From a virus (Duplodnaviria; Heunggongvirae; Uroviricota; Caudoviricetes), in the IMG/VR virus record IMGVR_UViG_2684623059_000002: DNA of 45,162 nucleotides, one strand, 5' to 3'. This document shows positions 9,703 through 10,376 of this stretch, piece by piece. How positions within the stretch are numbered: position 1 is the first letter of the stretch; every line of letters starts with the position of its first letter. The notes beneath the pieces were generated by a model, which worked only from the letters and a program-made list of their open reading frames with translations, ran no database searches and was not told where the DNA came from. The position numbers and the translations under genes are program-made.

Positions 9703-9856
9703 AAACGATTTGCGGGAAAAGGAGAGTTAAGTAGAATTGCTGCGGGTGCTTGAGGCTATCTGCCTCAGGCATGAACACCAACGGCAGATAGAGAAAAGCC
9801 CCAGTTAACATTACGCGTCCGGCAAGACGCTTAACATTAATCTGAGGCATATCTGT

Positions 9857-10057
9857 ATGCGACACATAAAGATTAGCCTCTTAACAGTAAGAAATCAACT
9901 AACAGGGGGCTGTAATGCGAAGGAGCTATGTGTTTTGTCTGGTGGTGGTTTGCATCACCATTCTGATATTTGTCTGGATGGTTCGCGGTTCGCTATGCGA
10001 GCTGCACATCAGGCAGGGAAACACAGAGCTTTCAGCGTATTTAGCCTACGAAGTTGA
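9857..10057 (+). CDS. mok: mok-like overlapping reading frame of a hok/sok-type locus
   Basis: ORF overlapping the hok frame in the arrangement typical of hok/mok/sok loci. Confidence 0.4.
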   Translation: MRHIKISLLTVRNQLTGGCNAKELCVLSGGGLHHHSDICLDGSRFAMRAAHQAGKHRAFSVFSLRS

Positions 10058-10067
10058 AAAACGTTAA
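9915..10067 (+). CDS. hok: Hok/Gef-family type I toxin (50 aa membrane peptide)
   Basis: MRRSYVFCLVVVCITILIFVWMVRGSLCELHIRQGNTELSAYLAYEVEKR matches the Hok/Gef pattern (TM helix, RxSLCE motif, AY.AYE C-terminus); missed by the 60-aa ORF track. Confidence 0.8.
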   Translation: MRRSYVFCLVVVCITILIFVWMVRGSLCELHIRQGNTELSAYLAYEVEKR

Positions 10068-10376
10068 GAGCTACGGCGGGGAGCAATTCCCGCCACTCTT
10101 TAAGTTGTCAGGTATTCTCAATGCACCCGCGCTTAACCCGCTTTAGCGCTGATTTATGGGGAGCCCTCAGCGCTTCGGCGGGTTTTTTGTTGTTTATTTT
10201 CGGCGAGCATGATGCATCTGGTTGTACTGATGTGGCTGGCTGCTCCTGTTATTCAGGTGGCTTATTGCTGTTGATTGGTATGTCTTCACGGCTAGAATCG
10301 AGGCTCTTAAGTAGCGCGCAGGGAGAAGAGGGATGGACCCTGAACAGGGGAGTGCTATTTATCTGGAAGGATTCTG

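What the first reader, a model, noticed from the sequence alone, without database searches (positions are those of the whole stretch)
9850..10070. Hok/mok/sok-type type I toxin-antitoxin locus missed by the ORF track
A 50-aa Hok/Gef-family peptide (9915-10067) with an overlapping mok-like frame (9857-10057) sits in the nin-like region. The antisense Sok RNA is expected on the minus strand over the mok start. Such loci stabilise the prophage and can cause post-segregational or abortive killing.
Basis: partly seen in the sequence, partly recalled or inferred. Interest (0 to 1): 0.6.

Follow-up and report, generated by a model that had tools for sequence, protein, structure and literature searches.

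The report
Prophage hok/mok/sok toxin-antitoxin locus
This is an apparently intact copy of the well-known hok/sok RNA-controlled toxin-antitoxin module, sitting in a slot of a lambda-like prophage where such modules are already annotated, so it is real but ordinary.

Summary
ORFs 9915-10067 (50 aa) and 9857-10057 (66 aa) exist exactly as stated. The 50-aa peptide matches Pfam HOK_GEF (70.4 bits, cutoff 22). The upstream leader matches Rfam RF01794 'sok' over the full model (99.9 bits, cutoff 59).

The whole locus spans about 9710-10190 and carries every canonical element in the right order:
- hok promoter, tac, ucb, SD-mok, mok, dcb, SD-hok, hok, a 3' protective hairpin, fbi and a terminator;
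- on the minus strand, a Sok promoter (TTGATT, 17 bp, TAATCT) driving a roughly 70-nt RNA (9863 to 9794) across the mok SD and start.

The tac-fbi end-pairing is predicted here and covaries between enteric and Erwinia/Serratia relatives. The Sok promoter geometry is conserved in all 10 loci with a callable hok start.

The exact Hok peptide is already annotated as 'Hok/Gef family protein' (Escherichia) on 532 contigs. PPompW prophages (gef) and K-12 Qin (hokD) hold a hok gene in the same slot. The related hokW-sokW has been shown experimentally to be a type I TA system.

The only mildly new points are that this allele is a chimera (933W-type leader, Salmonella/Citrobacter-type toxin) and that mok and Sok are unannotated. 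Expression, toxicity and physiological role are untested. Interest is low.

The parts
9710..9737 (+). hok mRNA promoter: -35 TTGCGG (9710-9715), 16-bp spacer, -10 TAGAAT (9732-9737)
   Evidence: Read from the sequence. It is identical in 933W hokW and lies 7 nt upstream of the Rfam model start at 9744. The consensus scanner did not report it because the -35 matches only 3 of 6. Inferred, not mapped.
9744..10188 (+). Predicted full-length hok mRNA (about 445 nt)
   Evidence: The 5' end is taken from the RF01794 model start and promoter spacing. The 3' end is taken from the terminator hairpin and U-run.
9744..9755 (+). tac (translational activator element), the 5' end of the mRNA
   Evidence: It pairs with 10116-10128 in the full-length MFE. 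The 3' window is the best partner of the 5' end in all 11 loci, and the pairing covaries between enteric and Erwinia/Serratia loci. In the nascent or truncated MFE it pairs with 9762-9779, the metastable hairpin.
9796..9804 (+). ucb (anti-SD of mok)
   Evidence: Positions 9798-9804 pair with 9842-9848 (SD-mok) in the full-length MFE. Positions 9796-9802 pair with tac in the Rfam consensus. The constrained fold with this pairing costs only 2.2 kcal/mol over the MFE. Element definitions are from PMC9841398.
9794..9863 (-). Predicted Sok antisense RNA (about 70 nt; 5' end about 9863, 3' end after UUUU at 9794)
   Evidence: Coordinates were transferred by alignment from the annotated 71-nt sokW of 933W. 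It folds into a roughly 15-nt 5' tail, a long hairpin and UUUU, at -28 kcal/mol. It covers the mok SD (9844-9847) and AUG (9857-9859). Expression was not tested.
9870..9898 (-). Sok promoter: -35 TTGATT (9898-9893), 17 bp, -10 TAATCT (9875-9870)
   Evidence: Seen. The same TTGnnn-17-TAnnnT geometry sits at the homologous position in all 10 loci with a callable hok start (E. coli phage 933W, Salmonella, Citrobacter, Enterobacter, Erwinia, Serratia). -10 mutations of sokW abolish antitoxin activity (PMC8621323).
9844..9847 (+). mok Shine-Dalgarno GAGG
   Evidence: Read from the sequence, 9 nt upstream of the mok ATG. R1 has the same GAGG motif (PMC9841398).
9857..10057 (+). mok reading frame (66 codons; only the first ~19 codons, up to the hok start, are expected to matter)
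   Evidence: Listed. Its start is 58 nt upstream of the hok ATG, as in R1. The frame is conserved in Salmonella L003 and Citrobacter L004. The exact product is seen on 93 public contigs.
9876..9880 (+). dcb (pairs with SD-mok in the open, truncated mRNA); overlaps the Sok promoter spacer next to its -10 element on the other strand
   Evidence: The constrained fold gives the 9844-9848:9876-9880 stem. This is the same stem as in the RF01794 consensus.
9904..9909 (+). hok Shine-Dalgarno AGGGGG
   Evidence: Read from the sequence, 5 nt upstream of the hok ATG.
9915..10067 (+). hok toxin gene (50 aa; hydrophobic segment about residues 6-23, conserved LCE...AYE C-terminal part)
   Evidence: Pfam HOK_GEF 70.4 bits. 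48% identical to R1 Hok and 35% to HokW. Kyte-Doolittle maximum 3.47 over residues 6-20. The exact sequence is annotated as a Hok/Gef family protein in Escherichia on 532 contigs.
10075..10094 (+). 3' stem-loop expected to protect the truncated mRNA from 3' exonucleases
   Evidence: An 8-bp GC-rich hairpin appears in all folds. The role is inferred from the R1 model (PMC9841398).
10116..10128 (+). fbi (fold-back inhibitory element)
   Evidence: It pairs with tac: 12 bp with a 1-nt bulge, -18.2 kcal/mol.
10137..10188 (+). Intrinsic terminator: CCCGC...GCGGG hairpin with an inner palindrome (10145-10152 / 10167-10174), then TTTTTT (10183-10188)
   Evidence: Seen. Salmonella and Enterobacter relatives have the short form CCCGCTTCGGCGGGTTTTTT. 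The scanner missed it because the loop exceeds its limit.

Best explanation
Window 9710-10190 is an apparently intact hok/mok/sok-family type I toxin-antitoxin locus with R1-type geometry, carried in the nin-like region of a lambdoid prophage.

Inferred mechanism, following the R1 paradigm:
- A weak promoter makes a stable mRNA of about 445 nt. Its 5' end (tac) pairs with its 3' end (fbi), and ucb masks the mok ribosome-binding site, so the full-length RNA is neither translated nor bound by Sok.
- Slow 3' trimming removes the terminator and fbi. tac then pairs with ucb, and the mok SD/AUG hairpin (SD-mok/dcb) is exposed.
- While the unstable ~70-nt antisense Sok RNA (9863 to 9794) is being made, it pairs with this region and the duplex is destroyed.
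- When Sok synthesis stops, through loss of the prophage or shut-off or interference during induction or superinfection, ribosomes translate mok. This opens the hok start, and the 50-aa Hok peptide inserts into the inner membrane and depolarises or lyses the cell.

Shown here: family membership of the peptide and leader, presence and order of all elements, predicted tac/fbi and ucb/SD-mok pairings, covariation of tac/fbi, and conservation of the Sok promoter.

Inferred: transcription, processing, toxicity and physiological role. By analogy with hokW-sokW, I favour Hok release on prophage induction or prophage loss.
For: - Pfam HOK_GEF 70.4 bits against a cutoff of 22.
- RF01794 full-length hit, 99.9 bits against 59. 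The same model hits the sense strand of the annotated 933W hokW leader, where sokW is annotated antisense.
- The leader 9720-9849 is nearly identical to 933W hokW. hokW-sokW is an experimentally demonstrated type I TA system (PMC8621323).
- The full-length MFE gives tac/fbi plus ucb:SD-mok. The open form (tac/ucb plus SD-mok/dcb) lies only 2.2 kcal/mol above the MFE of the truncated RNA. The metastable 5' hairpin is predicted for the nascent RNA. All of this matches the element definitions in PMC9841398.
- In all 11 loci the 3' end is the best partner of the 5' end. Enteric/Erwinia swaps lose 5-12 kcal/mol.
- The Sok promoter TTGnnn-17-TAnnnT is conserved in 10 of 10 loci examined.
- The 58-nt mok-hok start offset is identical to R1.
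- Hok start, stop and conserved residues are intact in the alignment.
- Near-identical loci are annotated Hok/Gef in E. coli.
Against: - There are no expression, processing or toxicity data for this allele.
- NCBIfam's narrower Hok models are not reached: HokA equivalog 70 against 89, Hok subfamily 62.4 against 73.
- The unconstrained MFE of the truncated RNA gives the metastable hairpin, not tac/ucb.
- Both promoters are weak matches that the consensus scanner did not report.
- Many chromosomal hok loci in E. coli K-12 are known to be inactive (own knowledge: Pedersen & Gerdes 1999), so sequence intactness does not prove activity.
- The physiological role is open. The only prophage hok/sok locus tested lies at a different place in its phage.
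Confidence: 0.9

Rival explanations
1. The locus is a silent relic. The sequence looks canonical, but one or more regulatory steps (hok promoter, 3' processing, the refolding switch, or Hok activity) are defective, as in several chromosomal hok loci of E. coli K-12, and it has no phenotype.
For: - The hok -35 matches only 3 of 6 and the Sok -10 only 3 of 6, and the scanner did not report either.
- The locus is a recombinant of two hok types, which could have mismatched co-evolved elements.
- The terminator carries a ~30-nt insertion relative to relatives.
- A close Salmonella relative (L003) has a 5-bp duplication that spoils hok promoter spacing, and Erwinia L008 has lost the hok start, so decay does occur in this subfamily.
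Against: - No stop, frameshift or IS element interrupts it.
- All pairings survive across the chimeric junction. tac and ucb come from one parent and fbi from the other, yet tac/fbi is still 12 bp at -18.2 kcal/mol.
- The promoter is identical to that of the functional hokW.
- The exact Hok peptide is kept on 532 contigs across Escherichia.
Confidence: 0.1
2. The locus is a lysis or release helper rather than an addiction module. As reported for hokW-sokW in Sp5, Sok disappears on RecA-dependent induction and Hok helps lyse the cell and raises phage yield. Here this could be reinforced by early rightward (PR-type) transcription, which runs in the hok sense direction and collides with the convergent Sok promoter. 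This rival concerns physiological role only and is compatible with the best explanation.
For: - PMC8621323 reports that sokW is lost after mitomycin C, that HokW is made in a RecA-dependent way, and that phage release is halved without the locus.
- The window's leader and promoter are 97-100% identical to hokW.
- hok is co-oriented with O, DnaC-like, DUF968, RusA and Q.
- The prophage keeps holin, endolysin, spanin and terminase genes.
Against: - hokW in 933W/Sp5 lies near the right prophage end, not in the early right operon, so the read-through idea has no experimental support.
- The effect reported for hokW is only two-fold.
- The Sok recognition tail and the toxin differ here.
Confidence: 0.4
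3. The role is prophage maintenance (post-segregational killing of cured cells) and/or abortive infection against superinfecting phages. This rival also concerns physiological role only.
For: - Family paradigm: R1 hok/sok stabilises plasmids and reduces T4 plating (as summarised in PMC8621323).
- Database annotators label the PPompW and 933W homologues 'phage maintenance protein' or 'prophage maintenance'.
Against: - Those labels are annotations, not tests.
- Excision of an integrated prophage is rare and usually lethal anyway.
- No data exist for this allele.
Confidence: 0.3

Closest known systems
hok/mok/sok of plasmid R1 (parB), the type I TA paradigm
   Same: - Same element order: tac, ucb, SD-mok, mok, dcb, SD-hok, hok, fbi, terminator.
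- mok is out of frame with hok and starts exactly 58 nt upstream of the hok ATG.
- GAGG mok SD.
- The antisense promoter overlaps dcb.
- Hok is 48% identical.
- The RF01794 structure is matched.
   Different: - Chromosomal prophage rather than plasmid.
- 16-nt insertion in the leader / Sok hairpin.
- Sok about 70 nt, against about 64-67 nt (own knowledge).
- Longer 3' terminator.
- Mok is 66 aa against 70 aa, and Hok is 50 aa against 52 aa.
hokW-mokW-sokW of Stx phage 933W / Sakai prophage Sp5 (AF125520; PMC8621323)
   Same: - Promoter, tac, ucb and the Sok terminator hairpin (window 9700-9839) are 97-100% identical.
- Same family hits.
- Lambdoid prophage host.
- It is experimentally a type I TA system.
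   Different: - From about 9840 on, identity falls to 42-63% per 35-nt bin. This covers the Sok 5' tail, the mok start, the Sok promoter, hok and the 3' UTR.
- Hok is only 35% identical.
- mokW is an in-frame N-terminal extension of hokW, whereas here mok is out of frame.
- hokW lies near the right end of the phage, not in the nin region.
gef of PPompW prophages and hokD (relF) of the K-12 cryptic prophage Qin
   Same: - Same slot and orientation: hok, rem, (hypothetical), ydfU/DUF968, rusA, Q.
- The window flank 10306-13200 is 95% identical to PPompW.
   Different: - PPompW carries a HokW-type toxin (35% identity).
- In Qin, hokD follows relBE. From my own knowledge it lacks its own mok/sok control.
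Unnamed Hok/Gef subfamily in Salmonella, Citrobacter, Enterobacter and Escherichia chromosomes (e.g. WP_001585819.1)
   Same: - Toxin 80-98% identical.
- The exact peptide is annotated in Escherichia.
- Same mok frame and Sok promoter.
- E. coli ETEC4085 carries the same chimeric locus at 98% identity in a lambdoid prophage.
   Different: Salmonella, Citrobacter and Enterobacter loci have a different, shorter central leader (no 16-nt insertion) and a short terminator.

Membership tests
Hok/Gef toxin family (Pfam PF01848) | Profile match above the curated gathering threshold | tested here: met
   70.4 bits against a cutoff of 22, E=9.6e-20, covering profile positions 3-42 of 42.
Hok/Gef toxin family (Pfam PF01848) | Peptide of about 50 aa with an N-terminal hydrophobic membrane segment and a conserved C-terminal LCE...AYE region | tested here: met
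   50 aa. Kyte-Doolittle maximum 3.47 for residues 6-20. The C-terminal motifs (G/K)SLCE, G..E and AYE align with R1 Hok, HokW and 5 other relatives.
NCBIfam HokA equivalog NF007290 / Hok subfamily NF007279 | Score above the curated cutoff | tested here: not met
   70 against 89 bits and 62.4 against 73 bits. It is therefore not an orthologue of HokA and lies outside NCBI's narrower Hok model, consistent with the generic RefSeq name 'Hok/Gef family protein'.
hok/sok mRNA leader (Rfam RF01794 'sok') | Covariance-model match above the gathering score, full length | tested here: met
   99.9 bits against 59, model positions 1-157 of 157, at 9744-9917 +. The model is in hok-sense orientation, as shown on the annotated 933W locus.
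hok/mok/sok type I TA system (R1 paradigm) | mok reading frame with its own SD, starting upstream of hok and running across the hok start (translational coupling) | tested here: met
   GAGG 9844-9847 and ATG 9857, 58 nt before the hok ATG as in R1. The frame is conserved in L003 and L004. Coupling itself was not tested.
hok/mok/sok type I TA system (R1 paradigm) | cis-encoded antisense RNA with its own promoter, complementary to the mok translation initiation region | tested here: inconclusive
   A promoter-like TTGATT-17-TAATCT is conserved in position in 10 of 10 loci. The predicted 70-nt RNA has a 5' tail, a hairpin and UUUU and is homologous to the annotated sokW. Transcription cannot be shown with these tools.
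hok/mok/sok type I TA system (R1 paradigm) | tac/fbi 5'-3' end pairing that closes the full-length mRNA | tested here: met
   MFE pairs 9744-9755 with 10116-10128. This is the best partner in all 11 loci, and it covaries between clades.
hok/mok/sok type I TA system (R1 paradigm) | Alternative pairings: ucb:SD-mok (closed), tac:ucb plus SD-mok:dcb (open), and a metastable 5' hairpin | tested here: met
   The closed form appears in the full-length MFE. The open form is 2.2 kcal/mol above the MFE and equals the Rfam consensus. The metastable hairpin appears in the nascent fold. These are thermodynamic predictions only.
hok/mok/sok type I TA system (R1 paradigm) | 3' processing to a truncated active mRNA, RNase III cleavage of the duplex, and Hok toxicity neutralised by Sok | not testable with these tools
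   Needs Northern blots or RNA-seq and growth assays. This has been shown for R1 (PMC9841398) and in part for hokW-sokW (PMC8621323).

The most novel reading that the evidence does not exclude
The module has been rewired into the phage's early right operon. Antiterminated PR-type transcription during induction would run through hok in the sense direction. It would (i) occlude the convergent Sok promoter and (ii) make 5'-extended hok RNAs that lack a free tac end and so escape tac/fbi closure. Hok would then be produced as a timed, induction-coupled lysis or abortive factor. In the lysogen, the strong hok terminator would double as a nin-type terminator guarding Q.

In addition, the chimeric junction at 9840-9874 gives this Sok a private recognition tail. 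That would let it coexist without cross-talk with hokW-type loci in polylysogens.
Probability: 0.15. Interest if true: 0.45.

Novelty: already known. Interest (0 to 1): 0.15.

Why it matters
It matters little beyond annotation hygiene. The toxin gene is already called in RefSeq relatives, but mok and the Sok RNA are not, and Rfam's 'sok' hit falls on the sense strand, which can mislead automated annotation about where the antitoxin lies. For phage biology, the locus is one more example of hok cassettes being exchanged at a fixed slot upstream of rem-ydfU-rusA-Q in lambdoid prophages. It would be a convenient natural chimera for testing which part of Sok sets specificity, and whether prophage hok/sok loci serve lysis or maintenance.

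Tried and rejected
- The consensus promoter/terminator scan found none of the relevant sites. The -35 of hok and the -10 of Sok match only 3 of 6, and the terminator loop is too long for the scanner. Its two hits (10271-10298 promoter-like, 9941-9962 terminator-like inside hok) are at chance level and were disregarded.
- A formal column-wise pair count on alignment A2 was abandoned. MAFFT put the two clades one column out of register in the second half of the tac/fbi helix because the bulge sits at a different position. Per-sequence RNAduplex with cross-clade swaps was used instead.
- The unconstrained MFE of the truncated mRNA did not give the tac/ucb 'open' form. Constrained folding was needed.
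- The 93-aa ORF 10121-10402 and the 91-aa minus-strand ORF 9590-9865 have no family hits (for the first). They overlap the fbi/terminator and the leader respectively, and were treated as spurious.
- The weak SNORD104 hit was treated as chance (E=0.5, below the gathering score).
- NCBIfam HokA/Hok models fall below their cutoffs, so assignment to HokA-E orthologue groups was rejected.
- A search of deposited phage genomes for this Hok subtype found nothing at 60% identity or above.
- The long mok overlap as evidence for mok was rejected as weak, since it stays open in 8.8% of synonymous recodings.

Full report
**Observation.** The 50-codon ORF is at 9915-10067 and the overlapping 66-codon ORF is at 9857-10057, both on the + strand and in different frames. 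The 50-aa product (MRRSYVFCLVVVCITILIFVWMVRGSLCELHIRQGNTELSAYLAYEVEKR) matches Pfam HOK_GEF at 70.4 bits (cutoff 22, E=9.6e-20). The 66-aa product matches no family, as expected for Mok. Rfam RF01794 ('sok antitoxin') matches 9744-9917 over the whole model at 99.9 bits (gathering score 59). An HMM built from eight Hok sequences finds no other Hok-like ORF in the six-frame translation of the window.

**Strand of the Rfam hit.** RF01794 hits the + strand and ends on the hok ATG. On phage 933W the record annotates hokW and mokW on one strand and sokW on the other. There the model likewise hits the hok strand (L001 2545-2719 +), whereas sokW is annotated at 2595-2665 on the minus strand. The model therefore describes the hok mRNA leader, and Sok is its partial reverse complement. 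Its consensus structure (tac paired with ucb, SD-mok paired with dcb) is the 'open' form of the truncated hok mRNA described in PMC9841398.

**Anatomy (window coordinates).**
- hok promoter: -35 TTGCGG 9710-9715, 16 bp, -10 TAGAAT 9732-9737. The predicted start is G9744. This is identical to 933W hokW.
- tac is at 9744-9755 and its metastable partner at 9762-9779.
- ucb is at 9796-9804.
- The mok SD (GAGG) is at 9844-9847 and the mok ATG at 9857.
- dcb is at 9876-9880.
- The hok SD (AGGGGG) is at 9904-9909, and hok spans 9915-10067.
- A GC-rich 3' hairpin is at 10075-10094.
- fbi is at 10116-10128.
- The terminator hairpin is at 10137-10182, followed by T6 at 10183-10188.
- On the minus strand there is a -35 TTGATT (9898-9893), a 17-bp spacer and a -10 TAATCT (9875-9870).
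- Transferring the annotated 71-nt sokW through the alignment gives Sok as 9863 to 9794 (70 nt). It ends in UUUU and covers the mok SD and AUG.
- Sok folds into a roughly 15-nt 5' tail followed by a long hairpin, at -28 kcal/mol.

**RNA structure tests.**
- The MFE fold of the predicted full-length mRNA pairs 9744-9755 with 10116-10128 (tac/fbi) and 9798-9804 with 9842-9848 (ucb:SD-mok). This is the closed, untranslatable form.
- The nascent 5' region folds into the metastable tac hairpin.
- The unconstrained MFE of the 3'-truncated RNA keeps that hairpin. When tac/ucb is enforced, the remaining leader folds into the SD-mok/dcb stem-loop of the published open form at a cost of only 2.2 kcal/mol. 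The switch is therefore energetically plausible, but thermodynamics alone does not predict it.

**Comparison with relatives.**
- I compared eleven loci: the window, 933W, Salmonella, Citrobacter, Enterobacter, five Erwinia and Serratia.
- In every locus, the best partner of the 5' 16 nt anywhere in its own mRNA is the 3'-terminal window.
- The helix covaries. Enteric loci have GGGUGCUUGAGG with CCUCAAnGCACCC, and Erwinia/Serratia have GGGUGCUCUGGAUC with GAUCCAnGAGCACCC. Cross-clade combinations lose 5-12 kcal/mol.
- The minus-strand TTGnnn-17-TAnnnT promoter motif lies at the homologous position in all 10 loci that have a callable hok start.

**mok.** In the window the mok ATG lies 58 nt upstream of the hok ATG and out of frame. 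This is the R1 arrangement, where the mok AUG is at nt 116 and the hok AUG at nt 174 (PMC9841398). The same frame is kept in the Salmonella and Citrobacter relatives. In 933W, Enterobacter L005 and Erwinia L010 the mok start is instead in frame with hok. The long overlap of mok with hok is only weakly non-random, staying open in 8.8% of synonymous recodings. [quoted passage not shown]

**Context.** The window is a lambdoid prophage. In order it carries:
- a RecE-like exonuclease and a DicF RNA;
- CI-, Cro- and CII-like regulators;
- O-like and DnaC-like replication genes;
- Ren-like and DUF551 genes;
- the hok locus;
- phrog_340, phrog_1212, DUF968/YdfU, RusA and a Q-like antiterminator;
- four tRNAs, then holin, endolysin, spanin and terminase.

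'Nin-like region' is therefore accurate. The slot is a known hok site. PPompW prophages have gef-rem-hypothetical-ydfU-rusA-Q-tRNAs, and their flank is 95% identical to window 10306-13200. K-12 Qin has relB-relE-hokD-rem-ydfU-ydfT(Q).

**How known is it?**
- The exact Hok peptide is in public databases as 'Hok/Gef family protein [Escherichia albertii]; MULTISPECIES [Escherichia]' on 532 contigs. The exact Mok product occurs on 93 contigs and is unnamed.
- Six of 5,426 complete E. coli genomes carry at least 80% of 9700-10250 at 95-98% identity, with hok annotated in a lambdoid prophage.
- Close homologues (80-96%) occur in Salmonella, Citrobacter and Enterobacter.
- The peptide is 48% identical to R1 Hok and 35% to HokW.
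- It falls below NCBIfam's HokA and Hok-subfamily cutoffs. It is therefore a distinct but already catalogued branch of the family.
- No deposited phage genome encodes it at 60% identity or above.

**A mild curiosity.** The allele is a chimera. Positions 9700-9839 (promoter, tac, ucb, Sok hairpin and terminator) are 97-100% identical to 933W hokW. Positions 9875-10119 (dcb, Sok promoter, hok, fbi) are 91-100% identical, per 35-nt bin, to the Salmonella type. The 35 nt between them (9840-9874), which hold the Sok 5' tail and the mok SD and start, match neither (63% and 51%). tac/fbi pairing survives the junction. This is ordinary phage mosaicism. It does mean that the part of Sok thought to initiate target recognition is allele-specific.

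**Mechanism and role.**
- I commit to the R1-type mechanism set out under the best explanation, with confidence 0.9 that this is a bona fide, structurally intact family member.
- The physiological role is not determined here.
- The only direct test of a prophage hok/sok locus (hokW-sokW of Sp5) showed the following: it is a type I TA system partly dependent on RNase III and Hfq; sokW is lost and HokW is produced after mitomycin C in a RecA-dependent way; and phage release falls two-fold without the locus (PMC8621323).
- Given the near-identical leader, I rate an induction-linked lysis-helper role somewhat above classical maintenance or abortive infection. All three remain open.
- A silent relic is possible (about 0.1), but no lesion is visible.

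**Verdict.** It is a known kind of element, at a known kind of place, and its toxin is already annotated in databases. Interest is low (0.15).

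Noticed in passing
window 9619-9702 (+): A 27-aa hydrophobic ORF (MTWPEAFATMGIAMAVALVVYSICRWG) has a start that overlaps the stop of the DUF551 gene (ATGA) and ends just before the hok -35. It is conserved in 933W (MTWPEAFANVGTVMAVVLVVYSICRWR, unannotated, about L001 2420-2503) and in E. coli ETEC4085, where the upstream gene is different. It has no family hit, and the exact sequence is not in the protein collection. It may be a small membrane protein that travels with the hokW-type leader.
   Followed up: partly
window 9744-9917 (+); L001 2545-2719: Rfam RF01794, named 'sok antitoxin', is built in the hok-sense orientation. It covers the whole hok 5' UTR up to the hok AUG, and its consensus structure is the open tac/ucb plus SD-mok/dcb form. 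Automated annotation from this hit would put the antitoxin on the wrong strand with the wrong extent.
   Followed up: yes
window 9700-10130 versus L001, L003, L012: The hok cassette is chimeric, with a 933W-type leader and a Salmonella/Citrobacter-type toxin and 3' UTR. The 35-nt Sok-tail/mok-start segment is unique. The flanks match PPompW prophages, which hold a HokW-type cassette in the same slot.
   Followed up: partly
L001, L003-L011 (hok loci of relatives): mok geometry is not conserved across the subfamily. It is out of frame with a long overlap in the window, Salmonella and Citrobacter. It is an in-frame N-terminal extension in 933W, Enterobacter L005 and Erwinia L010. In Erwinia L006/L007 it appears by eye to be a short upstream ORF ending in ATGA on the hok start. 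Erwinia L008 has lost the hok start, and Salmonella L003 has a 5-bp duplication in the hok promoter spacer.
   Followed up: partly
window 10145-10174 (+): The hok terminator carries a ~30-nt insertion with its own palindrome (AGCGCTGA...TCAGCGCT), relative to the short CCCGCTTCGGCGGG terminator of the Salmonella and Enterobacter relatives. It lengthens the hairpin.
   Followed up: no
window 3055-3106 (-): A DicF antisense sRNA (RF00039, 76.4 bits against 48) lies in the early-left region of the prophage, as in Qin-type prophages.
   Followed up: no
window 13305-13611 (+): A cluster of four tRNA genes lies immediately downstream of the Q-like antiterminator, as in Stx-type and PPompW prophages. 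Anticodons were not determined.
   Followed up: no
window 10377-10640 (+): The 87-aa ORF listed from TTG 10377 probably starts at ATG 10380 (MKIEEL...). It occupies the position of 'rem' in PPompW and Qin and matches phrog_340, of unknown function.
   Followed up: partly
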